This document shows positions 12,664-34,017 of a DNA stretch of 64,000 nucleotides, in pieces (the stretch's first letter is position 1; each line of letters opens with the position of its first letter). The DNA lies in assembly GCA_964535715.1 (NCBI GenBank), contig CAZHUO010000003.1, forward strand, positions 256 through 64,255. The letters run 5' to 3'. Below the pieces are notes generated by a model. That model was not told the DNA's origin and did no database searches. It was given only the letters and a program-made list of their open reading frames with translations. The position numbers and the translations under genes are program-made. This stretch comes from an uncultured Gammaproteobacteria bacterium. GTDB taxonomy: Bacteria; Patescibacteriota; Patescibacteriia; Buchananbacterales; UBA6539.

Positions 12664-12671
12664 GTTTGCAT

Positions 12672-13796: not shown

Positions 13797-13866
13797 TGTA
13801 TTCACCTCCTTTCTCTGTAAGGTTTGAGTTTCAAAGGTCATTATTTCCTAACTAGGAAATCATTTT

Positions 13867-15924: not shown

Positions 15925-17199
15925 TTAGCTGAATATTTTTTTAAATTCTTCCAAGACAACATTTTTATCATTCCAATTAATCTTTTTTCCATCAGCCAGG
16001 CACATTGAATTTTCCGATCCTTTACCGGTGATTATTACCACATCATCTTTATTGGCAGATTTTAGAGCCTCTGCTATTGCTTTTCTTCGATCAATCATTT
16101 TTTTGGCTGAAGTATTATTTTTGGCTATTTCGTTAATTATTGCCATCGGATCTTCATCGTAGGGGTCTTCATTTGTAATAATTGTTTGATCGCAATATTT
16201 TGAAGCCAGTTTGCCTAAAATCGGCCTTTTCCATTTATCTCTGCCGCCGCCGCAAGACCCTAAAACACATATTAATTTGTTTTTTTGGCTTTCGGTTTTT
16301 AGCGTTTGATATGCCTTTTCCAATGAATCGGGGGTAACGGCATAATCAACAAATACTTTATAAGGTGCGGAAATTATTTGTTCCATCCTGCCGGGCATTA
16401 TTTTTATTTTATTTAAGGCATTTTTACAAACATTTAAACTGATATTTTGTGAAAGCCCCAAGGATACAGCCGCCAGCGCATTGTAGATATTGAATTTGCC
16501 CAAAAGATTAAGGCGAAACTTAACACCATCTAAATAAAAGACGGAACCGTCTTTCAAGCATTGATAATCTTTTGTGGCAATTTTCTTTATGTCAAGAAAT
16601 TTATTTGTATTTTTAAGTTTTAGACTGTATAAGTATTTTTTCTCCGACTTAAAATTAAGGAAGTATTCAAAATTATCATCATCAGAATTAATTATATGAA
16701 TATTTTTATTAAGCCTGAAAAGTTCACCTTTTGACTTAAGATAATTTTCAAAACCGCCGTGTGCTTCCAAGTGTTCCGGTGTAACATTGGTAATTATAAC
16801 TGCTTCAAAATCAATAAACCTATGACGATGTTGCTTTATGCCTTCTGAGCTTACTTCAACTACGACATATTGGCAATTTTTTGAAACAGCTTGCCGTAAT
16901 AATTTTTGCAAAGAAAATCTGCCCGGCATTGTCATTCTTGAATCGTTAGGCCAGCTTTTTTCTCTTATTTGAAAATAGACAGAAGACGAAACGGCAATTT
17001 CAAAGCCGGCTTCTTTTAGAATTTCCGAAATCATTCTGACTACGGTTGATTTTCCGTTTGTTCCGGTTACACCGATAACTTTTATTTTTTTGGAAGGATA
17101 TCTGTAAATCATGCAAGCCAAAAAAGCCATGCATAAATGGTAAAAACTAAACGCTGATTTTGGCAGAATTTTTTTAAAAATTGATTTAATATTTTGCAT
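15925..17199 (-). CDS. Mur ligase family protein (MurE/MurT/CapB-like; lacks the MurE N-terminal domain)
   Basis: P-loop VIGVTGTNGKSTV. Mur ligase middle and C-terminal domain patterns are present. Confidence 0.7.
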   Translation of the reverse strand: MQNIKSIFKKILPKSAFSFYHLCMAFLACMIYRYPSKKIKVIGVTGTNGKSTVVRMISEILKEAGFEIAVSSSVYFQIREKSWPNDSRMTMPGRFSLQKLLRQAVSKNCQYVVVEVSSEGIKQHRHRFIDFEAVIITNVTPEHLEAHGGFENYLKSKGELFRLNKNIHIINSDDDNFEYFLNFKSEKKYLYSLKLKNTNKFLDIKKIATKDYQCLKDGSVFYLDGVKFRLNLLGKFNIYNALAAVSLGLSQNISLNVCKNALNKIKIMPGRMEQIISAPYKVFVDYAVTPDSLEKAYQTLKTESQKNKLICVLGSCGGGRDKWKRPILGKLASKYCDQTIITNEDPYDEDPMAIINEIAKNNTSAKKMIDRRKAIAEALKSANKDDVVIITGKGSENSMCLADGKKINWNDKNVVLEEFKKIFS

Positions 17200-17360: not shown

Positions 17361-18377
17361 ATGAATAACATTCCCTATATAAAAATTACTGCCAAAGATA
17401 ATTATGACCTTGGCTTTAAATTGGGAAAAAGATTGCATGGCAATATAAAAGATCGTATAACGGCAAACAAACGCCTTTATAAAAAAATGGGGGCAAAGAG
17501 TTTTTCTAAGTTGATTGAAATGTCTTTAAAATTTTTGCCGGCAGTAGAAGAGAATTTTCCGCATTTTTTATCTGAAGTCAAGGGTTTAAGTTCAGGATCC
17601 AAGGTTAAGTTTGAGGATCTAATGGTCTTAATATGCGAGGAAGAGGTGCTGGGACTAAAAATACCAAAGTGCACCAATGTAGCCGTTAAAAACAGCAATG
17701 AAGTTTTGATTGGACATAACGAGGACTGGCTTCATGCATATAAAAATAACGGACTTTATATTTTAAATTGCCGAATAAAAAACCGTCATTCCCTAAGCTT
17801 GAATTATATGGGAACTTTAGCCGGTTCCAGCTGCGGTTTAAACGACAGCGGTTTGTGCTTTACCGCCAATTCGTTAAGCCCAACCAGATTCCGCTACGGC
17901 GTCCCGATAAAATTTCAGTTCCGGGCGATTTTGGATTGCAAGACCGTCAAACAAGCAATTTATTCGGATATTAAAGAAAGCAGCATCTGCGGCAATACCA
18001 TTTATGGCTGGAGAAATTCACGAATTTTGGATGTTGAAGACCATTTCGGCCATCATGATTTTTTTCAAAGCGAAAAATTTTTGATTCATACAAACCATCC
18101 GTTACAAAAAGAAGACAGAAACAGAATAAACACAAAAAAAGAGTCAATAGACAGATATAATAGGGCGCTGGAAATATTAAATCAGGTAAAGAAATATGAT
18201 TTGCCGCTGCTGAAGAAAATATTGGTTGATCATGAGGCCGGAATTTGCAGTCATCGCGAAAAAAATACTTTTTGGGGCTCTACTATTGCGTCCGTAATTA
18301 TGAATCCGAAAAAAAAATGGATGGAAGTTTGCTGGTCTAATCCTTGCAAGAACGAATACTTAAGGCATTATCTTTAA
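17361..18377 (+). CDS. Peptidase C45 / acyl-CoA:6-APA acyltransferase-like Ntn hydrolase
   Basis: The central GHNEDW motif and Cys-containing blocks are typical of the C45/AAT family. Confidence 0.5.
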   Translation: MNNIPYIKITAKDNYDLGFKLGKRLHGNIKDRITANKRLYKKMGAKSFSKLIEMSLKFLPAVEENFPHFLSEVKGLSSGSKVKFEDLMVLICEEEVLGLKIPKCTNVAVKNSNEVLIGHNEDWLHAYKNNGLYILNCRIKNRHSLSLNYMGTLAGSSCGLNDSGLCFTANSLSPTRFRYGVPIKFQFRAILDCKTVKQAIYSDIKESSICGNTIYGWRNSRILDVEDHFGHHDFFQSEKFLIHTNHPLQKEDRNRINTKKESIDRYNRALEILNQVKKYDLPLLKKILVDHEAGICSHREKNTFWGSTIASVIMNPKKKWMEVCWSNPCKNEYLRHYL

Positions 18378-18435: not shown

Positions 18436-18464
18436 TTGACTTTTTTGATTATTTATCAGATAAT
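18436..18464 (+). promoter_or_regulatory. Sigma70-like promoter TTGACT-17-GATAAT upstream of the ATP-grasp cluster
   Basis: Read directly; about 55 nt upstream of the ATG at 18520. Confidence 0.45.
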
Positions 18465-18519
18465 TAATAATGTTGCCATTATTTTTTTGGCCAAATAAAT
18501 TTAAGATTAAAAGATAAAA

Positions 18520-19884
18520 ATGAATAATTTTTTAAATATATTCAGTCAACAAAATCGAAACGGTTTCAGTTTTGATGTTTTGGGTAAAAAATATTTTGTC
18601 ACTTATCCGCCAAAAGTATTTTCAGCTTTAAGTTATGAATCTAGACAGGTTCTGCTTGAAAATTTTGTTTATTGCCGCACCAAGCCGCTTTGTTTAATAA
18701 CAAAAAAGAATTTATTCTACCAAAATCAAAAACCGATATTAAAAAATTTTGTCGATTATGGTATACTTAAAGACTTACCCAGGGTGGCATTTTTTGAAAA
18801 ATCGCCGTTAAAGAAATTTTCCGATTCGTTTAAAACAAAAAAAAATTCAGAATATTTTGTAAAAAAAGAGAAAAAAATTCAGAATATGGATTGCTGGGAA
18901 TCTGATGACAAAAGGGCGATTTTGGCATTATCTTTTGGCAAAGACAGCTTGCTTTCGTACGGCATTGCCAAAGAACTCGGACTTAAATTGGATTTGGTTT
19001 ATGTAGCGGATAAGAATTCTTTGTCGGATCGGGAAGAAGTTTTTAAAAAGCGGATTATAAAAGACTTTGTAAAAAATGAAAAGGTAAAGATAAATTATCT
19101 GTTTGACAGCGCCGACAGCATTTTTTTGGAAAATATTTTTGAAAAAAAAATTGAGGAATTTGAAAATACCAACGGAATGCTGGCATTCTCCCTGGAACTA
19201 ATTCCTTTTTCCAAATATTTCAAAGCAAAATATCTGATTTTCGGCAATGAGGCGAATTTTTCCGATTATTTTGAAAAGGATGGCAAAAAAGCCTATCCGT
19301 CATTTGATCAAAGTGTTTTTTATTCCGAAAAAGAAAATCAGTATCTTGATAAGATGACAAAAGGAAGCGTTTCGGCCGTAAGTTTAGTTGAACCGATATA
19401 CAATATTGTTGAAATGTCCATATTGGTTAACCGCTACCAAAATCTTTTGTCTTATATGATGTCTTGCTCGCCTAAAAAAAATGATCCGGAAAAATGGTGT
19501 TACCATTGTCCAATGTGTGCAAAAGCTTTTTTATATCTTGTTGCTGTTGGAGGAAAACCTTGCCAAATCGGCTTTAATAAAGATTTTTTTCAAATTAAAT
19601 TTAAAAATTTATATCCGCTATTTAATGTTGGAGTTAACCGGGCTTATGAAAAGCCTTTAGCCGTCAGAGACGAACAACTTTTAGCTTTTCTTCTTACTTA
19701 TCGGCGCGGCATTAAAGGAGAGTTAATTAACTTATTCGCTAAAAAGTATTTAAAAGAAGCTGAAAAACGGGAAGTAGGCTTGAGAAAAAAGTTTTTAAGT
19801 ATAAATAAAATTGTAACAATTCCGGCTGAGATAAAAAACAACGTAATTAATATTTACAAGAAAGAAATAAAAAAAATAATATGA
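18520..19884 (+). CDS. PP-loop ATP pyrophosphatase-like protein (MJ0570/Dph6-like alpha-ANH domain) with a C-terminal Cys cluster
   Basis: AILALSFGKDSLLSYGIAKELG is an SGGKDS-type PP-loop variant. The C-terminal cluster is CSPKK...WCYHCPMCAKA. Confidence 0.5.
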   Translation: MNNFLNIFSQQNRNGFSFDVLGKKYFVTYPPKVFSALSYESRQVLLENFVYCRTKPLCLITKKNLFYQNQKPILKNFVDYGILKDLPRVAFFEKSPLKKFSDSFKTKKNSEYFVKKEKKIQNMDCWESDDKRAILALSFGKDSLLSYGIAKELGLKLDLVYVADKNSLSDREEVFKKRIIKDFVKNEKVKINYLFDSADSIFLENIFEKKIEEFENTNGMLAFSLELIPFSKYFKAKYLIFGNEANFSDYFEKDGKKAYPSFDQSVFYSEKENQYLDKMTKGSVSAVSLVEPIYNIVEMSILVNRYQNLLSYMMSCSPKKNDPEKWCYHCPMCAKAFLYLVAVGGKPCQIGFNKDFFQIKFKNLYPLFNVGVNRAYEKPLAVRDEQLLAFLLTYRRGIKGELINLFAKKYLKEAEKREVGLRKKFLSINKIVTIPAEIKNNVINIYKKEIKKII

Positions 19885-22304
19885 AAGTAGAAAACAGGCT
19901 TGAAGGAGGGGTAATTTTATTGGTTAACACCGGTTCAATCAAAAAACGTTTTATTTTGCAGAAGCTTAAAAAAATGGGATTGATTTTGGTTTGTTTGAAT
20001 AAAGAAAAAAATTGGGCCCAGTCTTATATTGATTATTGGATTTTAGCCGATAATGCAAATCATAGTGAATCAATTGCCGCGGTTAAGGAATTTATTTTAA
20101 ATAACCCGAATATAAAAATTGGCGGAGCGTTGACTTTTTGGGAAGATGATGTGCTTTTAACATCTAAAATAATAGATAAGCTGAATTTTATCGGCACACC
20201 TTATAATGTCGCCAAAAAAATAAGAAATAAATTTTTATTCAGGGATTTTTGTGAAAAAAACGGTTTGCCCGCTCCAAAGCATTCTTTGATTAAATCGGCA
20301 AACGACATTGAGAATTTATCCGATAAATTAAGTTTTCCTTTGGTTATTAAGCCGGTCTTTGGCGCAAGTAGCGCGTATGTCATAAAAGTTGATAACAAAG
20401 AAGAATTGGCAAATACTTACAGTTACATTAAAAAGAATATATCAACAAACATAGAAAGTTCCTTAAGCGATGGTTTGGAAATATTCATTGAAGAATATAT
20501 AGTGGGCGACGAGGTTGATATCGATATAATACTGCAAAACGGAAAAATTAAATTTTATTCAATATCTGACAATTATCAGACGAAGGAGCCGTTCTTTGTT
20601 GAAACCGGACAATCAATTCCCTCGGGCCTTTCCGACAAAGTTAAAAGTGATCTTGTTGATGTTGCTGAAGAAATTTTGGAAAAACTCGGTGTTCAAAATG
20701 GGGTTATTCATTTTGAGTCGAAATCAACTCCGACCGGACCGGTGCCGATTGAGATTAATTTAAGAATGGGCGGCGATGAAGTTCATTCTTTCGTCAAAGG
20801 CGCTTGGGGCGTTGATTTGATTGAAAATGCCGCTAAAATTGCTTTGGGAATATATATACCAAAAATTCAAAAACCAAGTACGCCCAAAAAATATATTACC
20901 GGAGTTTATTTTTTGCCGGAATATTCGGGCATTGTGTCAAAGCTTAATTTTAATAATGAGTTAACCAAAAAAAGTTATTTAGAAGAAGTTCATTTTTTTA
21001 AAAAAATTGGCGATCCGGTTTTAGTTCCGCCAGAAGGTTATGAATATTTGGGCTGGATTACGGTATCCGGTTTTAGCATGCTTGATGCCCAAGACAATCT
21101 TAAGGAGGCGTTAAAACATATTGACTTCAAAATTGCAAAGTTTGCTCCGGAATCATCAATCGGAAAGACCTCAAGAAAAAATAGTTTTTCTCATGCCTCA
21201 TTAAATACGAATTTGTTGATTCATGCGGCTAAAATTGAAAAATTAAGAAAAATCACTCCAAAAGAGCAAAGAAGCTTGCATATTGGCATTGCCTGTAATA
21301 TTTTTGACGACGGTGACGTCGCGATTGAAAATGAATTAATGACCATAGGAAAAAATATTGAAGAAACCCTAAAGGAGCGAGGCTATAAAATTACATTTTT
21401 TAATTTTAACGATATTAATAATGTTTTTCAGCAATTGAAATCAAGTGATGTTGATTTGGTTTTTAATGTTTGTGAAAGAATAAATAATTCAAGTTTGTTA
21501 GAGCCTCATGCCGCATCGCTTCTTGATATTTTGCAAATTCCTTATACCGGATCAAATCCTTCGACGCTAAGCCTGTGTATTGATAAATTAAGAGTAAAAA
21601 AACTTTTAACTCATCACAAAATTCCCACTCCTCGCTGGGATTACGCTTACGCGATGGATGAAGATATTGATGAGAGCCTCCAATATCCTTTGATTGTTAA
21701 GCCGGCAAATACCGATAATTCCATCGGCGTAACAAATGAATCGGTTGTGACAAATAAGGAAGATTTGCAGAAGCAGTTAAAAAAAGTAATTGTTGAAATC
21801 GGAAGTCCGGCTTTAATTGAAGAATATATTGAAGGCGATGAATATGACGTTTCAATTGTCGGAAGCGAGGATGACGACTTAAGAGTATTGCCTCTTTCTC
21901 GTTCAATTTTTTCCAATATGTCGCAAGGCAGCTGGCATATTTATACCCACGAAATGAAATTCTCAGATAAAACAATCGATCAATTCGGGGTGTTGGTTCA
22001 GCGGCCGCCGAAAAATATCAGCAAGCGCTTAAGTTCGCTTCTGACTGAAATTGCCCTTGATACTTACAATATTTTAGACTGTCACGACTATGGACGAGTT
22101 GAAATTAGGGTTGATAAGTATGACAATCCGTATGTTTTAGAATTAAATCCGAATCCATCCATTAATGTCGGAGACTGCCTGCCGGAAGTCGCCAAGCTGA
22201 CCGGAATGGATTATGGTGATTTTTTGGAAGACATTATCAATATGGCAATAAGGCGATACCGCAATCGTCCGCCTTATTACCATCTACAAACTACGCCTAT
22301 TTAA
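19881..22304 (+). CDS. Tandem double ATP-grasp ligase (two ATP-grasp modules; the second is D-Ala-D-Ala-ligase-like)
   Basis: Module 1 has LVIKPVFGASSAYVIKVDNKEEL and EEYIVGDEVDIDI. Module 2 has LIVKPANTDNSIGVTNESV, EEYIEGDEYDVSIV and LELNPNPS. Its start overlaps the upstream stop by 4 nt. Confidence 0.7.
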   Translation: MKVENRLEGGVILLVNTGSIKKRFILQKLKKMGLILVCLNKEKNWAQSYIDYWILADNANHSESIAAVKEFILNNPNIKIGGALTFWEDDVLLTSKIIDKLNFIGTPYNVAKKIRNKFLFRDFCEKNGLPAPKHSLIKSANDIENLSDKLSFPLVIKPVFGASSAYVIKVDNKEELANTYSYIKKNISTNIESSLSDGLEIFIEEYIVGDEVDIDIILQNGKIKFYSISDNYQTKEPFFVETGQSIPSGLSDKVKSDLVDVAEEILEKLGVQNGVIHFESKSTPTGPVPIEINLRMGGDEVHSFVKGAWGVDLIENAAKIALGIYIPKIQKPSTPKKYITGVYFLPEYSGIVSKLNFNNELTKKSYLEEVHFFKKIGDPVLVPPEGYEYLGWITVSGFSMLDAQDNLKEALKHIDFKIAKFAPESSIGKTSRKNSFSHASLNTNLLIHAAKIEKLRKITPKEQRSLHIGIACNIFDDGDVAIENELMTIGKNIEETLKERGYKITFFNFNDINNVFQQLKSSDVDLVFNVCERINNSSLLEPHAASLLDILQIPYTGSNPSTLSLCIDKLRVKKLLTHHKIPTPRWDYAYAMDEDIDESLQYPLIVKPANTDNSIGVTNESVVTNKEDLQKQLKKVIVEIGSPALIEEYIEGDEYDVSIVGSEDDDLRVLPLSRSIFSNMSQGSWHIYTHEMKFSDKTIDQFGVLVQRPPKNISKRLSSLLTEIALDTYNILDCHDYGRVEIRVDKYDNPYVLELNPNPSINVGDCLPEVAKLTGMDYGDFLEDIINMAIRRYRNRPPYYHLQTTPI

Positions 22305-22308
22305 ATTT

Positions 22309-23649
22309 ATGGCTGAAAATAAAAAAATGGCAAAAATCGGCTTGATGACCGGTGCAGTCGATAGCCTGATTTTTGCTTCGAAATGGACCAAAAATGAAAA
22401 TCAAGTTGTTTTTTTTGTGCCTGAAAGAACCAATGAGGAAAAATGGGCAAAAAGTTTTTTGCCGGCGGAAAACGTGGCGACTTATAATAAAGACAAGAAA
22501 CTTTCAATGGCAATTTTGGATTTTGAAGGCATCATTAAAAATTCCGATATTACCAAACGATTAAGAAATTTAGGCGTTAAATACTTCATACTCCATCACA
22601 GCGTAAGCGGTTTTCTAAATGACTGGCAGAAAAAATCAAAAATTAAACTGATTGCCTCCGATTTCAAATGGCATAAGCTTGAGGACAAGATTTTTTTTGA
22701 CCGATTTTTAAATAAGCATAATTTGCCCAAGCCGCAAAGCGAAATTTATTTTTGGGGCAAAAAAAATATTAAAATTAAAGGCAAGCTGGTTTTACAGGAT
22801 CCTCTTTCTGAGGGCGGGGAGGGCACTTATTTTATCGACCAGGCTTTAGATATTGAAAATTTTTTTGAAAAAACAAAATTAAGCAGGCAAAAAAAATATT
22901 TACTCAGAAAATATGCCGATGGAAGTTCTTTTGGAGTCACTATTTTTGTTTCATCGGGCCCGATTGCCGTTTCGGCCATAAGAAGCCAGTGCTATGAAAA
23001 AACCAATAAATCAAATCGGCGCCGTTTTTTGGGGGTTCAGTGGATTTCGGCTAAATCAATCAGTCAAAAAATCAAAGCCGATCTTAATAAGGTTTTCTTT
23101 TCTTTGGGCGAGTCATTGAAAAAATCGGGATTTTTCGGTTATGCCAGCATCGATTTTATTATCGGAGAAGACAACAAAATATATATTATTGAATGCAATC
23201 CCAGATTTTCCGCTTCTACTGCCCAGCTTTTGCAATTTCCTCAGACAATCGGCGGCTTGAATACGGCCAATTTATACTTTGATTATTTTTTTGGTAAGAG
23301 AAAAATATTTTCCAAAGGCAAATATTCCGGCTTGCAGAATTCTAAATTTAAGGGATCGATTTTACATATTGAAACTCCTGACTATAAAAAAAATTATCCG
23401 ATAATCAGGCAATATAAAAATGGCATCTATCAGCTTAACAAGGGTAAAATTTCATTTTTAACGCCGGATATTACCAAACTTGACGGTAAAGGCGATAAAT
23501 TCATTTATTATTCTGATGCCGAGAAAGGGGAAAAGATTGAAAATAGTACCGTTATTGGGCTTGTCATATCAAATTTTCCGTTATACAGTAATAGTGGGGA
23601 AATAAATAATAACGGAATTTGTATTTTAAAAAAATTTAAATTAATTTGA
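22309..23649 (+). CDS. ATP-grasp domain ligase
   Basis: GKLVLQDPLSEGGEGTYF and YASIDFIIGEDNKIYIIECNPRFSAST (ATP-grasp C-terminal Mg/ATP-binding block). Confidence 0.65.
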   Translation: MAENKKMAKIGLMTGAVDSLIFASKWTKNENQVVFFVPERTNEEKWAKSFLPAENVATYNKDKKLSMAILDFEGIIKNSDITKRLRNLGVKYFILHHSVSGFLNDWQKKSKIKLIASDFKWHKLEDKIFFDRFLNKHNLPKPQSEIYFWGKKNIKIKGKLVLQDPLSEGGEGTYFIDQALDIENFFEKTKLSRQKKYLLRKYADGSSFGVTIFVSSGPIAVSAIRSQCYEKTNKSNRRRFLGVQWISAKSISQKIKADLNKVFFSLGESLKKSGFFGYASIDFIIGEDNKIYIIECNPRFSASTAQLLQFPQTIGGLNTANLYFDYFFGKRKIFSKGKYSGLQNSKFKGSILHIETPDYKKNYPIIRQYKNGIYQLNKGKISFLTPDITKLDGKGDKFIYYSDAEKGEKIENSTVIGLVISNFPLYSNSGEINNNGICILKKFKLI

Positions 23650-23668
23650 ATCTTATTTTGAATAAGTA

Positions 23669-25003
23669 TTGATAAAATTTATGAAAAATATAAATTCATC
23701 AGCTGACAAAAAATTGATCCTGAAGCTATTGGCTGAAAAGTCAAGCGATAAAAAAGGCAATTTAACCGAAGTTGTCAATGAAACTTTGCAAAAGCGTAAA
23801 GCGATTTTGGCAATGGCCAAAAAGCATCCGACGCCTTTTTATTTGTTTGACCAAAATGCGCTTGATAAAAGAATCCGAGAATTTTCTGAAACTTTTAACC
23901 GTTATATTCCCAGTTTGGATATTTTTTATGCCATGAAATCAAACAGCCACCATTATTTGGTTAAAACGATGGTTAAACATGGATTAGGAATTGATGTTTC
24001 ATCTGGCCGGGAATTATCGCTTGCGCTAGAAAATAAGGCAAAAAAAATTATTTTCAGCGGCCCGGGCAAAACCGAGGCGGAATTGAATTTGGCCATAGAT
24101 AATAGCCAGAAAGTGACAATAAACATGGATAGTTTCGGCGAGCTGAAAAGGCTGGGAAATTTATTAAAAAGAAGGAATAAAAAAATAAAAGCCGGAATAA
24201 GGATTTATACGAAATATCATGGCAGCTGGAATAAGTTTGGAATCAATATTGAATCTTTGGCGGATTATTTCAGAGAAGCGAAAAAATACAAAAATATTGA
24301 TCTTTGCGGAATCCAATGCCATATGAGCTGGAGTAAAGACGAAAGCTCATATAAAAAGATGCTTTTGGAAATTGCCAATTTTTTAAAAAAAGATTTTACG
24401 GCCAAAGAGCGGGAAGCCGTTAAATTCATTGATTTCGGCGGCGGCTATGAAAATAACATGCTGGACGGCTATTATCCCTGGCTTATCCCAAAAAATGAAA
24501 TTCTGAAAATTGCCGGCGATTATTTTGACAAAAAAATAAATTTTTCGGATAAATATTATTTAACCGAATCGGCCAGCTTGGAAAAATACGCCAAAGCAAT
24601 CGGCTCAACGATAAAAAATGAATTGAAAGTTTTGGTTGATTGTGATTATTATTGTGAACCCGGTCGGATACTTTCCGCCAAATCAATGATTTTAGTTTTT
24701 AGAATTGTTGATGTCAAATCAAAAGATTTGGTTATTTTGGACGGCGGCATAAATATGGTTGGTTCTGACGACTTTGACTATTTTTATATTCCGGCTGTTA
24801 ATTTATCAAATTCGTCAAAAAAAGAAATAAAATGCCGTCTTTTTGGTCCGCTTTGCACTCCTTATGACTTTTGGACCCATTATTGCTATGCAAAAAAAAT
24901 GGAAGAAGGGGATATTGTTGTTTTTCCTAATCAGGGAGCTTATTCTTATTCATTGGCCCAAAATTTCATCAAGCCGATACCGGATGTTCATATTCTAAAG
25001 TAA
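23669..25003 (+). CDS. PLP-dependent decarboxylase, Orn/DAP/Arg decarboxylase family 2 (LysA-like; alanine-racemase fold)
   Basis: PLP-Lys motif FYAMKSN, GIDVSSGRE, DFGGGY and the C-terminal beta-barrel block CGPLCTPYD. Confidence 0.8.
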   Translation: MIKFMKNINSSADKKLILKLLAEKSSDKKGNLTEVVNETLQKRKAILAMAKKHPTPFYLFDQNALDKRIREFSETFNRYIPSLDIFYAMKSNSHHYLVKTMVKHGLGIDVSSGRELSLALENKAKKIIFSGPGKTEAELNLAIDNSQKVTINMDSFGELKRLGNLLKRRNKKIKAGIRIYTKYHGSWNKFGINIESLADYFREAKKYKNIDLCGIQCHMSWSKDESSYKKMLLEIANFLKKDFTAKEREAVKFIDFGGGYENNMLDGYYPWLIPKNEILKIAGDYFDKKINFSDKYYLTESASLEKYAKAIGSTIKNELKVLVDCDYYCEPGRILSAKSMILVFRIVDVKSKDLVILDGGINMVGSDDFDYFYIPAVNLSNSSKKEIKCRLFGPLCTPYDFWTHYCYAKKMEEGDIVVFPNQGAYSYSLAQNFIKPIPDVHILK

Positions 25004-25107
25004 GATTTTTTTGGTTAAACATAAAATATAAAATAAATGTTAAACTTAAATGTTTTATGTTGTATGTTTAACGCTATGTGATAAAAATATTGCCGCAGAC
25101 AGGACAA

Positions 25108-25131
25108 TTCCCTGTTTTTTATTATTTCAAT
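25108..25131 (+). terminator. Intrinsic terminator after the decarboxylase
   Basis: ACAGG-acaattc-CCTGT hairpin followed by TTTTTT. Confidence 0.5.
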
Positions 25132-25183
25132 TTTGGAGTATAATAATCATATATTGGATTTTTAGCCGATAATTTTTAAAAAA

Positions 25184-26947
25184 ATGAAAGAAAATACTAA
25201 AAAGACTCTCAAGATTTATTGGCAAAAATCACTGAATTATAAATTTTCAGTGATTGTTGTTTTTATCTCCGTTTTTTGCGCTTCTTTAATAGGTGTAATT
25301 ATCCCGATATTTTATAAAAACTTTTTTGATATCTTGGCGTCAGGTTTAGAAAAAAATTCATTAATCAGCCAGCTTATTTCAATTATATTGATTATTTTAG
25401 GCCTTGATTTTTTAGGCTGGTGTTTTTGGCGCTTTGCCACTTTTTATTCCAATTATTTTCAGTCAAAGGTAATGACCGATTTGTCTAATTATTGTTTTGC
25501 ATATCTACACCGCCATTCCTTTTCTTTTTTTAATAATAATTTCGTCGGTTCACTGGTTAAAAAAGTCAAATGGTTTAGCCGGGCATTTGAGACGATTGGC
25601 GATAAGATTATTTGGAATTTGTTTCCCTTATTTGTAAATATTGCAATAATCATCTTAGTCCTTCTTAGCAGAAACTGGCTTCTAAGCCTTGTTGTTTTAG
25701 TTTGGATAATTTTATTCTTGCTGGTTAATTTGATTTTTACTAATTATAAATTAAAGTATGATATCTTGCGAAGCGAGGCGGAAACAAAAACAACCGGCTT
25801 TTTGGCAGATTCGATTACAAACAATAGTGTTATTAAGCTTTTTGTGGGGTTTAGCCGCGAAGTAAAAGGCTTTGGCAAGGTAAATGAAGATTTAAGAAAG
25901 TTAAGAAAATTAACTTGGGATTTGGATGGTTTTTTTGAAGCCTTGCAGGGTTTTTTGATGGTTATTTTGGAGTTTGGAATTTTTTATTTGGCGGTTTTTC
26001 TTTGGCTACGCAATATTTTAACCGTTGGCGACTTTGTTTTGATTCAGGCATATTTGATAAATATTTTTCATCGAGTTTGGGAGTTTGGGCGGGTTTTACG
26101 CCAAACTTATGAAGCTCTTTCTGATGCCGAAGAAATGACCGTTATTTTAAATACTCCCCATGAAATAAAAGACATTTTAGGCGCCAAGGATTTGAAAATT
26201 AAAAAAGGCAGAATTGAATTTAAAAATGTTGATTTTTATTATTATCAGACCAGGAAGGTTCTCAGTGATTTTAATTTAATCATAGAACCCGGACAGCGTC
26301 TGGCGTTAATCGGTCCCTCCGGGGCGGGAAAAACAACAATTGTGCGCTTGCTTTTAAGGCTTTATAATCTTTCAGGCGGGCAGATTTTTATTGATAATCA
26401 GGATGTTTCAAAAGTAACCCAGGAAAGCCTTTGGAAGAATATTAGCCTTGTTCCTCAGGATCCGATTCTGTTTCATCGGCCGCTTTCGGAAAATATCGTG
26501 TATGGCAGGCCTGATGCGTCAGAAACAGAAATAGTTGTATCAGCCAAGGCGGCGCATTGCCATGAATTTATAACCAAATTTCCCGACGGCTACAATACCC
26601 ACGTCGGCGAGCGCGGAGTTAAGCTTTCCGGCGGAGAAAGGCAGCGGGTGGCAATTGCCCGAGCGATTCTGCGAAATTCGCCGATTTTAATATTGGACGA
26701 GGCGACATCGAGCCTTGATTCCGAATCAGAGCTTTTAATTCAGGACGCTTTAGACAAGCTGATGGACGGAAAAACCGTAATTGCAATCGCTCACCGCCTT
26801 TCAACAATCAGAAAAATGGATAGAATAATTGTGGTTGATCAAGGCGGTATTATTGAGGAAGGCAGTCATGAAGAATTGCTAAAAAATAAAAGAGGTTTGT
26901 ACAAAAGACTCTGGCAGCTGCAGGCTGGAGGGTTTATTCAGGATTAA
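25184..26947 (+). CDS. ABC transporter fused permease/ATPase (type I exporter, MsbA/ABCB-like)
   Basis: 6-TM N-terminal domain. Walker A GPSGAGKTT. Signature LSGGERQRVAIARAIL. Walker B ILILDEATS. Confidence 0.9.
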   Translation: MKENTKKTLKIYWQKSLNYKFSVIVVFISVFCASLIGVIIPIFYKNFFDILASGLEKNSLISQLISIILIILGLDFLGWCFWRFATFYSNYFQSKVMTDLSNYCFAYLHRHSFSFFNNNFVGSLVKKVKWFSRAFETIGDKIIWNLFPLFVNIAIIILVLLSRNWLLSLVVLVWIILFLLVNLIFTNYKLKYDILRSEAETKTTGFLADSITNNSVIKLFVGFSREVKGFGKVNEDLRKLRKLTWDLDGFFEALQGFLMVILEFGIFYLAVFLWLRNILTVGDFVLIQAYLINIFHRVWEFGRVLRQTYEALSDAEEMTVILNTPHEIKDILGAKDLKIKKGRIEFKNVDFYYYQTRKVLSDFNLIIEPGQRLALIGPSGAGKTTIVRLLLRLYNLSGGQIFIDNQDVSKVTQESLWKNISLVPQDPILFHRPLSENIVYGRPDASETEIVVSAKAAHCHEFITKFPDGYNTHVGERGVKLSGGERQRVAIARAILRNSPILILDEATSSLDSESELLIQDALDKLMDGKTVIAIAHRLSTIRKMDRIIVVDQGGIIEEGSHEELLKNKRGLYKRLWQLQAGGFIQD

Positions 26948-27826
26948 TTGAGCCAATTTTCAATAGATGCTATAATAATACTGGAAAGAAAATATTTAAC
27001 CCAAGCAATTATGCCAGTAGAAATATCGAGCCGGTCTGTCGGTTTAGAAAATGATGCTGTTTCAAATGATCAAAATATTTTAGACCAAAATCAAAACAAT
27101 GAGACAGGATCAACCGATTTAAATAAGGGAAAAATATCAGGAAATATTGCAAATGAATCAAAGCCGGAAGTTTTTGAGCTTAAAGATAAGATAGAATCGG
27201 CTATAACTGTTGATGAGCTTATTGATATTATAAAAAATGAACCAACTGTTTATTGTGACCAAATAATTCATCAAGGCAGAGAATTGGGGAAAAAAATTTC
27301 TGATGCGGCAGAATTTTTACGGAAAAATTTTGATCAAATAATACTCGACACAATTATTCAGAAAGAAGGCGATGTTTTAGCCGAATTCTCCAAGATGTTT
27401 TTATTAATCCCTTTGGAAAATAATTTAGGAATTAGAAAAAAGGCTCAGGAGCTATTAAGGCGGGAAATAAATTCTTATTTTGAAGAAAAAAAAGCTGATT
27501 TTGCCTTAGCCTCGGTTTCTGCTGCCGGAAGTTTAAGACAGCTTTGCGATATATTGCAAAATTTCAAAACCATTAGGCAAAAAGAAAAAGTTTATGATAA
27601 GGAAAAAGTAATTCAGCAAATAGTTGATGCGGAAAAATTTCTCCTTGAAGCCGTTGAAATTGGGGCGCTGGCTGAATTAAGCATTGAGCAGATTGATGCA
27701 TATATCAATAATCTTATTGTAAATTTGCCTTTTGATTGCGGAATACACGATAAGGCTTTCGGGCTGCTATGGCAGTTGGTCAAAGAAAAGCGACTAAGCA
27801 GGACAAAAAATAAAGAAGGCAAGTAA
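26948..27826 (+). CDS. Hypothetical alpha-helical protein, translationally coupled to the ABC exporter
   Basis: Its ATG is adjacent to the ABC stop. No recognisable motif. Confidence 0.4.
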   Translation: MSQFSIDAIIILERKYLTQAIMPVEISSRSVGLENDAVSNDQNILDQNQNNETGSTDLNKGKISGNIANESKPEVFELKDKIESAITVDELIDIIKNEPTVYCDQIIHQGRELGKKISDAAEFLRKNFDQIILDTIIQKEGDVLAEFSKMFLLIPLENNLGIRKKAQELLRREINSYFEEKKADFALASVSAAGSLRQLCDILQNFKTIRQKEKVYDKEKVIQQIVDAEKFLLEAVEIGALAELSIEQIDAYINNLIVNLPFDCGIHDKAFGLLWQLVKEKRLSRTKNKEGK

Positions 27827-27887
27827 ATATACGAATTATATTGCAGTATGATTTTTTTAAAGGCATTTTATTTATAATACAAAATAT

Positions 27888-28655
27888 ATGAAAAAAACAA
27901 AACAAAAAATTAAAAGATGGGAATATATTAATCTCATTTTTGCCTTGTCTATTGAAGTAATATTGCTTTTTTTGATTTTAGTGATTCTTTTGGTGTCACT
28001 TTTGGGAGTCTTTTTGCCTATTTTGCCGGCATTTTTGCTTTTAGGAGTTGCTGCGGCAATATATTCTTTAATGATAAAAAGCGGTTATAATAGAATTAGT
28101 GGCAGATTTCACCCATATATTATTAGGTTTAGCGAAAAGATTCTTGATATAAAAATTGTGAAAATTTTTGTCGATTATTACAAAGTTTATAGTAAAAAAA
28201 ATAAGGCAAGAAAACAGGTTCAGGAAAATATTTTAAAATTCGGCTTGATTCTTTTGATTTTGAACATGTCTTTGGCCTTAATTTTTTGTTTTGGTTTTAT
28301 CTTTATTTCGACTTTAGCAGTTTTAATTAGTATCAGCGGACTATGGCTGATTTTTTTGCCGCCGTTATTTATCATCACTTTTTCCGCCTTAAGCGCCGTA
28401 CTTTGGTATCGTTTCGGACAAATTCTAGGAAGCATATTCAAGCAAAATAAAGTAATAAATTCGTTGCTTGCGGTATTAGTTTCTTTTTTGCCATTGATAC
28501 TTGTATTTATTATTTCAGCCCTTGTGATCGGTTTTTTAGGAATTGCAATAAATGATTTTTTTGCCATTTTGTTTTTGGGATTTTTATTGATGTCGGTTTT
28601 AGCTAGCAGTTTTGAGCTTCTTATTGTAAGTCTTGGAGCAATTACCGCTATATAA
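27888..28655 (+). CDS. Hypothetical polytopic membrane protein
   Basis: At least 6 predicted hydrophobic helices. Confidence 0.5.
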   Translation: MKKTKQKIKRWEYINLIFALSIEVILLFLILVILLVSLLGVFLPILPAFLLLGVAAAIYSLMIKSGYNRISGRFHPYIIRFSEKILDIKIVKIFVDYYKVYSKKNKARKQVQENILKFGLILLILNMSLALIFCFGFIFISTLAVLISISGLWLIFLPPLFIITFSALSAVLWYRFGQILGSIFKQNKVINSLLAVLVSFLPLILVFIISALVIGFLGIAINDFFAILFLGFLLMSVLASSFELLIVSLGAITAI

Positions 28656-28659
28656 TAAT

Positions 28660-29028
28660 ATGCTGATTTTGGAAGGCAGGGTAAAAACCGGCAGAAAAAT
28701 TGGGACAAATCTGGGTTTTTCGACAATAAACATATCAGTTCCCCACACCGTGAAAAAAAAGCAGTGGGGAATTTATTTTTCATTTGTCAAGATTGGCGAT
28801 AAATTTTATCCCGGAATAACGCATCTTGGACCGCCAAAAACTTTTAGCTTATCCAATGCAACATGTGAAACACACATATTGAATTTCAAAGGCAATTTGT
28901 ATAATAAGAAAGTAATTAAAAGGCTGATTTTTAAATTTAGAGACGTAGAAAAATTTCCCAATATTGTTAAATTAAAAAAACAGATAAAAAAAGACATCAA
29001 GTTAGCAAGGAAGTTTTTTGGAATATAA
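28660..29028 (+). CDS. Monofunctional riboflavin kinase (RibF C-terminal-domain-like)
   Basis: GRVKTGRKIGTNLGFSTINI, GIY, GITHLG, ETHILNF and LYNK riboflavin-kinase blocks. The start is taken at the internal ATG (MLILEGR). Confidence 0.65.
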   Translation: MLILEGRVKTGRKIGTNLGFSTINISVPHTVKKKQWGIYFSFVKIGDKFYPGITHLGPPKTFSLSNATCETHILNFKGNLYNKKVIKRLIFKFRDVEKFPNIVKLKKQIKKDIKLARKFFGI

Positions 29029-29095
29029 ACTAGTAAGCATAGAACACATAACATATAACATATAAAGCGAAAAATTTTTTTATGTCATATTTTAT

Positions 29096-30046
29096 ATGTT
29101 TAATGGTATTATCTTAGGTCCACTTTTTATAATTATTGCTGCCATTCTTTGGGGAGTTGACGGCATAGTTTTGCGTCCAGCTTTATTTGCTTTGCCGGTT
29201 CCGTTAGTTGTTTTTATTGAGCATTTTTTTGCTTTATTGGTAATGCTGCCATTTTTCTTTCGAGGAAGAAAAGAATTAAGAAATTTAAACAGATCGGACT
29301 GGGGCGCATTTTTTTTAGTCGCGATATTTGGCGGGGCGTTGGGAACAATGTTTATTGTCAAAGCCCTTTTTTACGTTAATTTTGTCAATCTTTCGATAGT
29401 TGTTTTGATTCAGAAGCTTCAGCCGGTTTTTGCCCTAGTATTAGCCGCAGTTATTTTGAAAGAGAAATTGCCTAAAAAATTCTTTTTTTGGGCAGCAGTT
29501 GCAATTATTGCCGCTTATTTTGTGACATTTGAAAATTTTGTGCCAAATTTTTCAACCGGCAACAAGACTATTCTTGCCGCCTTATTTGCGTTAGGTGCGG
29601 CTTTTGCTTTCGGATCTTCAACTGTTTTTTCCAAGCGCGCCTTACAAAAAGTCAGTTTTCAAATGGGGACATATCTTCGGTTTGGGCTGACTTCGGCTTT
29701 AATGTTCTTTATTGCTTTGGCTTTTGGTAGCTTTGGTGCCGCATCGCAGATTACCTCAAGGCAGTTTTTAATTTTTGTTTTAATTGTTTTTTCGTCAGGT
29801 GGAGCGGCCATGTTTTTGTATTACTTCGGCTTAAAGCGGGTGAGTGCTTCGGTTTCCACGATTTGCGAGCTGGCTTTTCCATTGTCGGCAATTCTTTTAG
29901 AATTTATTATACACGGTCGCATGCTTTCTTGGTCGCAGTGGCTTGGCGCGCTAGTGTTATTTTTGGCGATATATAAGGTTTCTGTGCAATCGTCAGGGAC
30001 TAATCTAATGATTAATAAGAATCAAAAAGCAAGTATTAGAAATTAA
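29096..30046 (+). CDS. EamA/DMT-superfamily transporter
   Basis: 10-TM protein with two EamA-like halves. Confidence 0.6.
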   Translation: MFNGIILGPLFIIIAAILWGVDGIVLRPALFALPVPLVVFIEHFFALLVMLPFFFRGRKELRNLNRSDWGAFFLVAIFGGALGTMFIVKALFYVNFVNLSIVVLIQKLQPVFALVLAAVILKEKLPKKFFFWAAVAIIAAYFVTFENFVPNFSTGNKTILAALFALGAAFAFGSSTVFSKRALQKVSFQMGTYLRFGLTSALMFFIALAFGSFGAASQITSRQFLIFVLIVFSSGGAAMFLYYFGLKRVSASVSTICELAFPLSAILLEFIIHGRMLSWSQWLGALVLFLAIYKVSVQSSGTNLMINKNQKASIRN

Positions 30047-32682: not shown

Positions 32683-32700
32683 AAGTTAACTTTTATAATT

Positions 32701-33927: not shown

Positions 33928-34017
33928 GATTTGTAAAAAAATTTTAAAATTAATGCTGTTTAAAAGATTTAGTTTCTTATTTTTTTAATTTTTTAATTAT
34001 AGCTATTCTTCTGCAAC

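What the first reader, a model, noticed from the sequence alone, without database searches (positions are those of the whole stretch)
18436..28655. ATP-grasp x3 / PP-loop ATPase / LysA-like decarboxylase / ABC exporter cluster, a candidate ribosome-independent amide-ligation pathway
Behind one promoter sit, with overlapping stop and start codons, a PP-loop ATP-pyrophosphatase-like protein with a Cys cluster (Dph6/MJ0570-like amidation chemistry), an 807-aa protein with two complete ATP-grasp modules, a third ATP-grasp protein and a diaminopimelate-decarboxylase-family PLP enzyme. After a terminator come an MsbA-type ABC exporter translationally coupled to a 292-aa unknown protein and a polytopic membrane protein. 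Pairing ATP-grasp ligases with a LysA-family decarboxylase and an exporter recalls small-molecule pathways such as butirosin BtrJ/BtrK gamma-glutamylation and decarboxylation, or dapdiamide- and bacilysin-type dipeptide ligases. The three grasp modules argue against graspetide (RiPP) tailoring, and I found no precursor-peptide ORF. The product is unknown. It could be an exported pseudopeptide or polyamine conjugate, or a cell-wall stem-peptide variant given the Ddl-like second module.
Basis: partly seen in the sequence, partly recalled or inferred. Interest (0 to 1): 0.65.

Follow-up and report, generated by a model that had tools for sequence, protein, structure and literature searches.

The report
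Conserved multi-ligase peptide operon in Patescibacteria
This is a real, tightly packed operon of three ATP-grasp ligase modules, a previously unclassified QueC-like ATP-pyrophosphatase and a BtrK-like decarboxylase, conserved in ultra-small Patescibacteria and partly in several archaeal phyla; it most likely builds a short non-ribosomal peptide-like molecule whose identity is unknown.

Summary
The core is four tightly packed genes:
- a 454-aa PP-loop protein;
- an 807-aa fusion of an L-amino-acid-ligase module and a Ddl-like module;
- a third, divergent ATP-grasp protein;
- a LysA-fold PLP decarboxylase.

The same order recurs with gaps of -4 to 12 nt in at least seven other Patescibacteria loci.

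- The PP-loop protein has no Pfam or NCBIfam hit, and its model folds like QueC, QatC and Cap9, not Dph6.
- In 68 of 78 evaluable loci it lies within two genes of a Ddl-like ligase, across Patescibacteria, DPANN, Bathyarchaeia and Asgard archaea.
- The Ddl-like module scores below the Ddl cut-offs and has changed substrate residues.
- The decarboxylase scores below the lysA cut-off. Its catalytic motif is BtrK's (GPLCTP-D), not LysA's (C-E-S/T).
- No conserved precursor ORF and no dap genes were found.
- The 807-aa fusion is 62-84% identical across many Patescibacteria and often stands alone, so it may be housekeeping.
- The 292-aa protein is an orphan. The ABC exporter recurs in only some loci.

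Best reading: a stand-alone ligase assembly line with decarboxylation and PP-loop amidation. The product and its destination (exported, or cell wall) are unresolved.

The parts
18436..18464 (+). sigma-70-like promoter match (TTGACT-17-GATAAT) ahead of the operon
   Evidence: This is a consensus match only; match counts in the region are not clearly above the shuffles.
18520..19884 (+). 454-aa PP-loop ATP-pyrophosphatase of an unclassified QueC-like family. It has an N-terminal extension, a PP-loop Rossmann core with SFGKDS, a Cys4 zinc-ribbon motif and a C-terminal helical domain.
   Evidence: No Pfam, NCBIfam or PADLOC family. Invariant residues. Model pLDDT 93.7. Foldseek hits: QatC E 3e-5, then Cap9, QueC and YcfA. 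Family size and spread.
19881..22304 (+). 807-aa fusion. Residues ~1-440 are an L-amino-acid-ligase-type ATP-grasp module. Residues ~460-807 are a Ddl-like ATP-grasp module with an altered substrate pocket.
   Evidence: Pfam and NCBIfam. PDB: BL00235 L-amino-acid ligase E 2e-28, BacD, and Ddl E 1e-22. Residue mapping. Homologues 62-84% identical across Patescibacteria.
22309..23649 (+). 446-aa divergent stand-alone ATP-grasp ligase
   Evidence: ATP-grasp_3 at 42 bits against a cut-off of 23.2. Weak NCBIfam hits to MfnD and LdmS; weak PDB hit to an ATP-grasp protein, 7r8p. Co-occurs with the decarboxylase in relatives.
23669..25003 (+). 444-aa fold-type III PLP decarboxylase of the LysA/FslC/BtrK group (alternative start 23681)
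   Evidence: PLP-lysine motif FYAMKSN and catalytic motif GPLCTPYD, compared with BtrK, LysA and FslC.
25097..25125 (+). terminator-like hairpin with T-run between the decarboxylase and the ABC gene
   Evidence: Consensus match only.
25184..26947 (+). 587-aa ABCB-type half-transporter (exporter architecture), probably linked to the operon
   Evidence: Orthologues 57-67% identical lie next to the operon in L008, L012, L014 and L011, but in only 9 of 89 fusion loci.

Best explanation
The four genes 18520-25003 form one operon that assembles a short peptide-like molecule of about three to four residues without ribosome or NRPS.

Proposed steps:
1. Each of the three ATP-grasp modules activates a carboxylate as an acyl-phosphate and joins it to an amine. 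The modules are the L-amino-acid-ligase type, the Ddl-like type and the divergent third protein.
2. The Ddl-like module keeps the catalytic and ATP residues. Its second-substrate pocket has become acidic and different (H63E, Y216F, S281D, L282C). It therefore probably accepts something other than D-alanine, perhaps an amine-bearing partner.
3. The PLP decarboxylase removes the alpha-carboxylate from a residue whose far end is already conjugated. BtrK does this on gamma-glutamyl-ACP and FslC on N-citrylornithine. The result is a terminal amine.
4. The QueC-like PP-loop enzyme adenylates a remaining carboxylate and converts it to an amide, using ammonia or an amine, following QueC/Cap9 chemistry.
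5. In this genome the product is probably passed to the adjacent ABC exporter, so it ends up outside the cell or in the envelope.

Shown: gene content, fold and family assignments, changed specificity residues, operon conservation, absence of a precursor ORF.
Inferred: order of steps, substrates, amidation versus ligation, export.
For: - Domain assignments.
- PP-loop fold: high-confidence model with QatC, Cap9, QueC and YcfA as best structural matches, plus a QueC-type Cys4 motif.
- Operon conservation: the order PP-loop, fusion, third ATP-grasp, decarboxylase recurs with gaps of -4 to 12 nt in L001, L007, L008 and L025; the same order holds with one larger gap or an inserted gene in L004, L012 and L014.
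- Modularity: relatives carry two to five grasp modules, up to two PP-loop genes (none in some loci), and an MR/MLE epimerase-like gene (L022, L117) or a FemAB-like GNAT gene (L114, L117). This variation is what a stand-alone-ligase assembly line would show.
- The PP-loop gene lies within two genes of a Ddl-like ligase in 68 of 78 evaluable loci from bacteria and archaea.
- Decarboxylase motif GPLCTPYD matches BtrK's GPLCTPED, against LysA GPICETGD and FslC GPSCMQHD. No family member has C-E-S/T.
- Ddl-like residues mapped.
- ABC orthologues recur beside the operon in several lineages.
- No conserved small ORF.
- No paper describing the system was found.
Against: - No substrate or product is identified, and the order of steps is guesswork.
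- The 807-aa fusion is far more conserved and widespread than its partners and often occurs alone. It may have a housekeeping role that the accessory genes merely modify.
- The exporter is absent from most related loci.
- No carrier protein was found, so the BtrJ/BtrK analogy is incomplete.
Its length (306) and the listed key residues printed as expected, and the C-terminal positions (270-284) agree with the HMMER alignment to Yersinia Ddl.
- The PP-loop motif is SFGKDS, not the canonical SGGxDS.
Confidence: 0.55

Rival explanations
1. Cell-wall role. The 807-aa fusion is the Patescibacteria-wide enzyme that makes peptidoglycan peptide building blocks, for example the D-Ala-D-Ala equivalent plus a second dipeptide. 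The PP-loop enzyme, third ligase and decarboxylase tailor the stem peptide or cross-bridge, for example by amidation as AsnB1/LtsA do, or by decarboxylating a bound diamino acid.
For: - The fusion is 62-84% identical across many Patescibacteria classes and sits among housekeeping genes. JGI names it D-Ala-D-Ala ligase.
- No closer Ddl (maximum 32% identity to DdlB) occurs in any of the 168 related loci.
- In L013 the operon directly follows murD-ftsW-murG and a Ddl-like gene. L015 and L048 carry the same gene families upstream by clustering.
- A MurE-like gene lies beside the operon in the window and in L004, and nearby in L015 and L017.
- A FemAB-like GNAT occurs in 15 of 89 fusion loci and an MR/MLE dipeptide-epimerase-like gene in 13 of 89.
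Against: - The PP-loop plus Ddl-like pair also occurs in DPANN, Bathyarchaeia and Asgard archaea. In DPANN the set extends to PP-loop, L-amino-acid ligase, Ddl-like and decarboxylase. These archaea are not known to make murein.
- The Ddl-like module lacks the D-Ala-binding residues and scores below the Ddl cut-offs.
- An ABCB exporter is not a known peptidoglycan-precursor flippase.
- The accessory genes are present in only a minority of genomes that carry the fusion.
Confidence: 0.27
2. An intracellular metabolite. The enzymes make a cytoplasmic small molecule such as a low-molecular-weight thiol (a GshF-like two-step synthesis by the fusion), a compatible-solute dipeptide amide of the NAGGN type, or a polyamine conjugate. 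The neighbouring exporter is unrelated.
For: - The fusion of two ligase modules recalls bifunctional GshF, whose second half is Ddl-like (own knowledge).
- A GGCT-fold gene and a ThrC-like PALP gene accompany the archaeal pair.
- An Ngg-like RimK-GNAT fusion and a GATase gene lie nearby in a DPANN locus.
- The exporter is absent from most loci.
Against: - No test bears directly on any of these products.
- The first module is an L-amino-acid ligase, not a GshA fold.
- No glutaminase partner for the PP-loop enzyme sits in the operon.
- The variability in module number is unusual for a fixed cofactor or thiol.
Confidence: 0.1
3. Ordinary primary metabolism. The Ddl-like module is the wall D-Ala-D-Ala ligase and the decarboxylase is LysA, clustered by chance with other ligases.
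For: Best named NCBIfam hits are Ddl and lysA. JGI annotates homologues as D-Ala-D-Ala ligase.
Against: - Both score below the curated cut-offs: 197.9 against 243, 152 against 245.65, and 172 against 297.9.
- The LysA C-E-S/T motif is replaced by C-T-P.
- H63, Y216, S281 and L282 are changed.
- No dap genes were found among the window ORFs scanned.
- The four-gene order is conserved as a unit.
Confidence: 0.04
4. A RiPP (graspetide) locus or a QatC/Cap9-like anti-phage system, in which the PP-loop enzyme modifies a protein N-terminus.
For: The best structural matches of the PP-loop protein are the defence proteins QatC and Cap9. Like QatC, it has N- and C-terminal extensions (PMC13279940).
Against: - No PADLOC defence model matches any of the seven proteins scanned (the ABC exporter was not included), apart from one weak, implausible Cas8a hit.
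- No QatA, QatB, QatD or CD-NTase neighbours.
- No homologue on plasmids or phages.
- QueC's CDG-binding motifs are absent (against PMC13329287).
- No conserved small ORF.
- The three grasp modules are of the L-amino-acid-ligase and Ddl types.
Confidence: 0.03

Closest known systems
Butirosin side-chain enzymes BtrJ (ATP-grasp), BtrK (PLP decarboxylase) and BtrG (GGCT fold)
   Same: An ATP-grasp ligation is paired with a LysA-fold decarboxylase that acts on a conjugated amino acid. The catalytic motif GPLCTPYD is almost identical to BtrK's GPLCTPED. A GGCT-fold gene accompanies the archaeal version of the core pair.
   Different: There is no acyl-carrier protein like BtrI, no aminoglycoside genes, three grasp modules instead of one, and an added PP-loop enzyme. 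BtrK aligns over only part of the decarboxylase's length.
L-amino-acid ligases and their pathways (BL00235, BacD/YwfE of bacilysin, DdaF with the amidotransferase DdaH of dapdiamide)
   Same: The N-terminal module has ATP-grasp_4 plus LAL_C2 and is closest to BL00235 (E 2e-28) and BacD. As in dapdiamide, a stand-alone ligase is combined with a PP-loop amide-forming enzyme and an efflux protein (own knowledge of the dapdiamide cluster).
   Different: The module is fused to a Ddl-like module. The PP-loop enzyme has the QueC fold, not the asparagine-synthetase fold, and has no glutaminase domain. The hosts are Patescibacteria and archaea, not Bacillus or Pantoea.
D-alanine--D-alanine ligase (Ddl/VanA)
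   Same: Same fold. The ATP and catalytic residues K97, K144, K215, R255, E270 and N272 are conserved.
   Different: About 26% identity to E. coli DdlB, below the NCBIfam cut-offs. Substitutions are H63E, S150N, Y216F, D257E, G276S, S281D and L282C.
QueC family (QueC, Cap9, QatC)
   Same: PP-loop Rossmann core with a C-terminal Cys4 zinc motif. These are the best structural matches. It has N- and C-terminal extensions, as QatC does (PMC13279940). The expected chemistry is carboxylate adenylation followed by amide formation.
   Different: No PF06508 hit. The loop is SFGKDS, not SGGxDS. QueC's YxQxHxxE, VPxRN and YPDC motifs are absent (against PMC13329287). The partner is a Ddl-like ligase, not queuosine or defence genes.
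N-citrylornithine decarboxylase FslC (rhizoferrin) and SbnH (staphyloferrin B)
   Same: FslC is the only solved relative that aligns over the decarboxylase's full length (residues 43-441, E 1e-26). It is a LysA-fold enzyme acting on an amide-conjugated amino acid.
   Different: No NIS synthetase (IucA/IucC) genes are present. The catalytic motif differs (CMQH against CTPY). NCBIfam FslC scores 110 against a cut-off of 500.

Membership tests
D-alanine--D-alanine ligase (Ddl) | Score at or above the curated family cut-offs (NF002378 243; TIGR01205 245.65) | tested here: not met
   197.9 and 152.1 bits
D-alanine--D-alanine ligase (Ddl) | D-Ala-binding residues H63, S150, Y216, S281, L282 (E. coli DdlB numbering) | tested here: not met
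   E, N, F, D and C at these positions. The same pattern holds in nearly all fusion homologues in the loci, with N for D at 281 in a few.
D-alanine--D-alanine ligase (Ddl) | ATP-grasp catalytic and ATP residues K97, K144, K215, R255, E270, N272 | tested here: met
   All conserved
Diaminopimelate decarboxylase (LysA) | TIGR01048 score at or above 297.9 | tested here: not met
   172.1 bits
Diaminopimelate decarboxylase (LysA) | C-E-S/T after the catalytic Cys, which binds the distal centre of DAP | tested here: not met
   GPLCTPYD here, against GPICETGD in Aquifex LysA. None of the 22 family members where the motif could be read has C-E-S/T.
Diaminopimelate decarboxylase (LysA) | Rest of the lysine (dap) pathway nearby | tested here: not met
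   No dap genes among the window ORFs scanned
QueC family (PF06508) | Match to the family profile | tested here: not met
   No Pfam or NCBIfam hit at E 0.01. Only one of 120 listed homologues carries a precomputed PF06508 hit.
QueC family (PF06508) | PP-loop SGGxDS and C-x8-C-x2-C-x2-C zinc motif | tested here: inconclusive
   SFGKDS is invariant (second Gly replaced by Phe), and C-x10-C-x2-C-x2-C is invariant. Fold match to QueC, Cap9 and QatC.
QueC family (PF06508) | CDG-pocket motifs YxQxHxxE, VPxRN, YPDC (PMC13329287) | tested here: not met
   Absent. The conserved motifs here are FGNExN and YPSFDQS.
   No Pfam hit. None of the top 50 structural matches is a Dph6/MJ0570-type protein; the best are QueC-family proteins.
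L-amino-acid ligase (LAL) | ATP-grasp core plus LAL C-terminal domain 2 | tested here: met
   ATP-grasp_4 at 110 bits and LAL_C2 at 37.4 bits (cut-off 29.4). BL00235 E 2e-28.
Graspetide / RiPP cluster | Precursor-peptide gene next to the ATP-grasp enzyme | tested here: not met
   Only chance-level small ORFs, none conserved in relatives
BtrJ/BtrK-type carrier-dependent pathway | Acyl-carrier protein gene in the cluster | tested here: not met
   No ORF of 70 aa or more other than the listed genes recurs in the operon across loci. Smaller ORFs were checked only in the window.
MsbA lipid A exporter | TIGR02203 score at or above 602 | tested here: not met
   394 bits. This is a generic ABCB half-transporter architecture.
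Anti-phage QatABCD / type IV CBASS | PADLOC model hits and partner genes (QatA/B/D, CD-NTase) | tested here: not met
   No PADLOC defence model matches, apart from one weak Cas8a hit. No such neighbours. No plasmid or phage homologues.

The most novel reading that the evidence does not exclude
The unclassified QueC-like PP-loop enzyme and its Ddl-like partner are the core of an old, undescribed two-enzyme amide-forming pathway shared by Patescibacteria, DPANN, Bathyarchaeia and Asgard archaea. In Patescibacteria this pathway has been grafted onto a phylum-wide 807-aa double ligase. That ligase supplies an essential envelope or metabolic peptide, for example a racemase-independent route to D-residue-containing wall peptides through an L-amino-acid ligase and a dipeptide epimerase.
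Probability: 0.15. Interest if true: 0.8.

Novelty: new variant of a known kind. Interest (0 to 1): 0.6.

Why it matters
Patescibacteria and DPANN archaea have very small genomes with little biosynthesis. An operon that spends five or more ATP-dependent steps on one small molecule is therefore likely to matter for their envelope or for their dealings with host cells.

Three results can be tested directly:
- A PP-loop family that no profile library recognises. It is small, with about 150-300 clusters at 50% identity, and is almost always paired with a Ddl-like ligase across two domains of life.
- An 807-aa double ATP-grasp enzyme that is among the better-conserved proteins of Patescibacteria, yet is annotated only as 'ATP-grasp domain protein' or, probably wrongly, as D-Ala-D-Ala ligase. 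If that label is wrong, metabolic reconstructions that count it as ddl need revisiting.
- A LysA-fold decarboxylase with the BtrK motif outside any aminoglycoside pathway.

Tried and rejected
- A single-sequence AlphaFold model of the third ATP-grasp protein was unusable (pLDDT 35). Locus-derived homologues could not be submitted as an alignment.
- A profile search of the PP-loop family against PDB sequences gave only a weak PP-loop motif hit to TtuA (E 0.45).
- The PADLOC defence models gave nothing meaningful.
- tblastn of the PP-loop protein against plasmids and phages gave nothing.
- Rfam and tRNA scans of the window were empty.
- Six literature searches combining ATP-grasp, PP-loop, QueC-like, L-amino-acid ligase, Ddl, peptidoglycan and CPR, Patescibacteria or DPANN terms found no description of the system. 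The CPR protein-family paper PMC6744442 does not mention it.
- Cyanophycin-like synthesis was considered, because a peptidase S51 gene, a Mur-ligase-like gene and a weak 'cyanophycin-associated ABC' hit are present. It was set aside: the Mur-ligase gene scores as MurE, and these genes are not conserved neighbours.
- A canonical Ddl was sought in all fetched loci, and none exceeded 32% identity to DdlB. Whole genomes could not be searched.

Full report
**What is in the sequence**

On the + strand, one search lists ORFs at 18520-19884 (454 aa), 19881-22304 (807 aa), 22309-23649 (446 aa), 23669-25003 (444 aa), 25184-26947 (587 aa), 26948-27826 (292 aa) and 27888-28655 (255 aa).

Pfam and NCBIfam give the following:
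- The 807-aa protein has two ATP-grasp modules. The N-terminal one is ATP-grasp_4 plus LAL_C2, and the C-terminal one is Dala_Dala_lig_C.
- The 446-aa protein is a weaker but significant ATP-grasp_3 match.
- The 444-aa protein is a fold-type III PLP decarboxylase.
- The 587-aa protein is an ABCB-type exporter.
- The 454-aa, 292-aa and 255-aa proteins have no significant family match; the 255-aa protein has only a weak, sub-threshold ABC_membrane hit.

Only the first junction overlaps (ATGA). The next two are spacers of 4 and 19 nt. A promoter-like site begins at 18436, and a hairpin with a T-run lies at 25097-25125. Such consensus matches are not enriched over shuffles.

The window has about 35% GC. 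It has no tRNA or Rfam hit. It carries genes for PheRS, MetRS, UvrABC, type IV pilus proteins, H+-pyrophosphatase and phosphoglycerate kinase. Homologues of the cluster proteins come from Patescibacteria MAGs, so the window is almost certainly from a Patescibacteria genome.

**The PP-loop protein**

- Its 221 detectable homologues are all 'hypothetical'. They come from Patescibacteria and from Nano- and Woesearchaeota.
- A scan of one genome per species found 160 loci. These extend to Bathyarchaeia, Thor-, Hermod-, Hod- and Promethearchaeota, and to a few other bacteria.
- An exhaustive profile search of 1.84 billion representative proteins found only 156 clusters at E <= 1e-30 and 316 at E <= 1e-10. 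The family is small.
- The alignment has invariant S-x-G-K-D-S, G-N-E-x-N, Q264 and C316/C327/C330/C333.
- AlphaFold with this alignment gives pLDDT 93.7.
- Foldseek against the PDB ranks QatC first (E 3e-5), then Cap9, QueC, YcfA and NcsA/TtuA.

The protein therefore has a QueC-type PP-loop core with a QueC-type zinc ribbon, and N- and C-terminal extensions as in QatC (PMC13279940). It lacks QueC's YxQxHxxE, VPxRN and YPDC substrate motifs (PMC13329287), so its substrate is not expected to be 7-carboxy-7-deazaguanine. The Dph6 comparison is not.

**The ATP-grasp modules**

By sequence, the N-terminal half of the fusion is closest to the L-amino-acid ligase BL00235 (E 2e-28) and to BacD. The C-terminal half is closest to Ddl (E 1e-22).

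The Ddl-like half scores below both curated Ddl cut-offs and is about 26% identical to E. coli DdlB. I mapped it onto DdlB numbering. The mapping shows:
- K97, K144, K215, R255, E270 and N272 are retained.
- H63 becomes E, S150 N, Y216 F, D257 E, G276 S, S281 D and L282 C.

Every Ddl-like protein next to a PP-loop gene has H63 replaced by E or D and Y216 replaced. They fall into at least five residue patterns. These are Ddl-fold ligases with other specificities, not wall Ddl.

The third ATP-grasp protein has only weak similarity to MfnD and LdmS. Its single-sequence model failed.

**The decarboxylase**

It scores 172 bits against lysA (cut-off 297.9) and 110 against FslC. Only FslC aligns over the full length.

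The motif around the catalytic cysteine is GPLCTPYD. BtrK has GPLCTPED, Aquifex LysA has GPICETGD and FslC has GPSCMQHD. In none of the 22 related decarboxylases where this motif could be read is it C-E-S/T. The residue after the cysteine varies (T, M, L, K, D), and the DPANN forms with C-D resemble ornithine decarboxylases (own recollection of the ODC motif).

BtrK and FslC both act on amino acids whose far end is already conjugated. That is the most economical reading here as well.

**Comparative context**

I called ORFs in 83 loci fetched around PP-loop homologues and blasted the window proteins against them. I did the same for 80 metagenome loci fetched around the fusion, plus five more fetched by exact protein look-up.

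- Core pair. In 59 of 78 evaluable loci a Ddl-like gene is the immediate neighbour of the PP-loop gene, and in 68 of 78 it lies within two genes.
- Patescibacteria. The order PP-loop, fusion, third ATP-grasp, decarboxylase recurs in at least seven loci; gaps are -4 to 12 nt in L001, L007, L008 and L025, and L004, L012 and L014 have one larger gap or an inserted gene.
- Variants in Patescibacteria:
  - L022 has about ten tightly packed genes: a split fusion, two PP-loop genes, an MR/MLE gene, an unknown 366-aa gene, the third ATP-grasp, the decarboxylase and two more.
  - L153 has the fusion, two more L-amino-acid ligases, the third ATP-grasp and the decarboxylase.
  - L117 has the fusion, a PP-loop gene, an MR/MLE gene, an unknown gene, a FemAB-like GNAT and the decarboxylase.
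- DPANN. The set is two Ddl-like genes, the PP-loop gene, sometimes an L-amino-acid ligase, the decarboxylase and a KamA-family aminomutase close to lysine 2,3-aminomutase.
- Bathyarchaeia and Asgard. The pair sits with a short ThrC-like PALP enzyme, a 197-aa protein that looks GNAT-like from its sequence motif but has no Pfam or NCBIfam hit, and a GGCT-fold protein.
- The fusion. Its top 120 homologues are 62-84% identical over 800 aa, from many Patescibacteria classes. It is more conserved than the decarboxylase (45-74%), the PP-loop protein (42-65%) and the third ATP-grasp (27-57%) in the same loci. It also stands alone among housekeeping genes in Roizmanbacteria and Peregrinibacteria. Within five genes of 89 fusion genes, a PP-loop gene occurs in 39 loci, the decarboxylase in 24, the third ATP-grasp in 18, a FemAB-like GNAT in 15, an MR/MLE gene in 13 and the ABC orthologue in 9.

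**What does not belong**

- The 292-aa protein has one relative among 5.8 billion proteins. It has no TM segment, and another gene caller starts it 63 nt downstream of the ABC stop.
- The 255-aa membrane protein always travels with the riboflavin kinase and EamA genes. That block lies downstream of the operon in the window and in L001, but upstream and divergent in L010 and L012. This is synteny among relatives.
- The C45 acyltransferase/hydrolase upstream is next to the operon only in this organism.

**Mechanism**

I commit to a stand-alone-ligase assembly line.
1. The three grasp modules make three amide bonds through acyl-phosphates.
2. The decarboxylase removes the alpha-carboxylate of a residue linked through its side chain or distal end.
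3. The PP-loop enzyme adenylates a remaining carboxylate and forms an amide. The nucleophile is ammonia or an amine, since no glutaminase domain is present.
4. The ABC exporter, whose orthologues recur beside the operon in several lineages, takes the product out.

The acidic substitutions E63 and D281 in the Ddl-like pocket suggest a cationic or amine nucleophile rather than D-alanine. This is inference.

The main rival is a peptidoglycan role. In its favour are the phylum-wide conservation of the fusion, the position of the operon directly after murD-ftsW-murG and a Ddl-like gene in L013, with the same upstream gene families in L015 and L048, the MurE-like neighbours, and the FemAB-like and dipeptide-epimerase-like genes. 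Against it are the presence of the PP-loop/Ddl-like pair, and in DPANN of PP-loop, ligases and decarboxylase, in archaea that are not known to make murein, and the non-Ddl pocket. The two readings share the same chemistry and differ in where the product goes.

**Rejected readings**

- RiPP: no conserved precursor ORF.
- Defence system: no meaningful PADLOC hit, no partner genes, no plasmid or phage homologues.
- lysA/ddl primary metabolism: cut-offs and specificity motifs not met, and no dap genes.

**Novelty**

The enzyme kinds are known. Three things appear undescribed in the searchable literature: the combination of these enzymes, the PP-loop family itself, and the wide conservation of the double ligase in Patescibacteria. 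I rate it a new variant of a known kind, with interest 0.6.

Noticed in passing
window 19881-22304; L084, L085, L086: The 807-aa fusion of an L-amino-acid-ligase module and a Ddl-like module is 62-84% identical across at least 120 Patescibacteria protein clusters. It often stands alone among ribosomal and housekeeping genes. JGI labels it D-Ala-D-Ala ligase, which its substrate residues do not support.
   Followed up: partly
window 15925-17199 (-): A MurE-like Mur ligase of 424 aa lacks the N-terminal UDP-binding domain; the profile match starts at position 88 of 486. It has EDPY where MurE has the DNPR/DNPA specificity motif. Similar short MurE-like genes (426-452 aa) lie near the operon in L004, L015 and L017.
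   Followed up: partly
window 26948-27826: The 292-aa soluble protein after the ABC gene is an orphan, with one relative (53% identity) among 5.8 billion proteins. Its N-terminal third is low-complexity, and its start codon is uncertain (TTG at 26948 or ATG at 27011).
   Followed up: yes
window 27888-30046; L001, L010, L012: The membrane protein, a stand-alone riboflavin kinase (122-131 aa) and an EamA transporter form a conserved block that sits on either side of the operon in relatives. This may be riboflavin uptake plus phosphorylation.
   Followed up: partly
window 17361-18377 and 14770-15375: A C45-family autoproteolytic acyltransferase/hydrolase lies just upstream on the same strand, and a peptidase S51 (dipeptidase E/cyanophycinase family) lies 3 kb upstream. 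Neither is a conserved neighbour of the operon.
   Followed up: partly
window 11577-13841: Two PheRS-type genes face each other: a normal PheS (343 aa, +) and a 389-aa protein (-) with a class II core plus an FDX-ACB domain. To my knowledge that architecture is the one of monomeric mitochondrial PheRS. The second lies in the locally GC-richest stretch (0.44 against about 0.35).
   Followed up: no
window 6149-11078: A run of co-oriented genes encodes a nucleotidyltransferase, a PfkB kinase fragment, a SAM methyltransferase and a B12-binding radical SAM enzyme. Two 319-410-aa proteins without any Pfam hit precede them. This may be another small-molecule or glycan-modification cluster.
   Followed up: no
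L014, L022, L029, L033, L055, L093 and others: The PP-loop gene is often tandemly duplicated. Either two different carboxylates are processed or the enzyme works as a heterodimer.
   Followed up: no
L004, L012, L023, L048 (about 620-aa gene between the third ATP-grasp and the decarboxylase): A 613-630-aa protein with no Pfam hit but an HExxH (HELAH) motif is inserted inside the operon in several relatives. It may be a metallopeptidase-like tailoring or immunity protein.
   Followed up: no
L044-L082 (Bathyarchaeia and Asgard loci): The archaeal PP-loop/Ddl-like pair is flanked by a short ThrC-like PALP enzyme (NCBIfam PRK06381), a 197-aa protein that looks GNAT-like by motif but has no family hit, and a GGCT/AIG2 protein. 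An MR/MLE enzyme and an amidohydrolase are often nearby. This is a second, different version of the pathway.
   Followed up: partly
window 30997-40405: A type IV pilus gene set lies directly downstream: PilB-like ATPase, PilC, two prepilin-like proteins, an 850-aa protein with no Pfam hit, and PilM fused to SH3 domains. This is typical of Patescibacteria.
   Followed up: no
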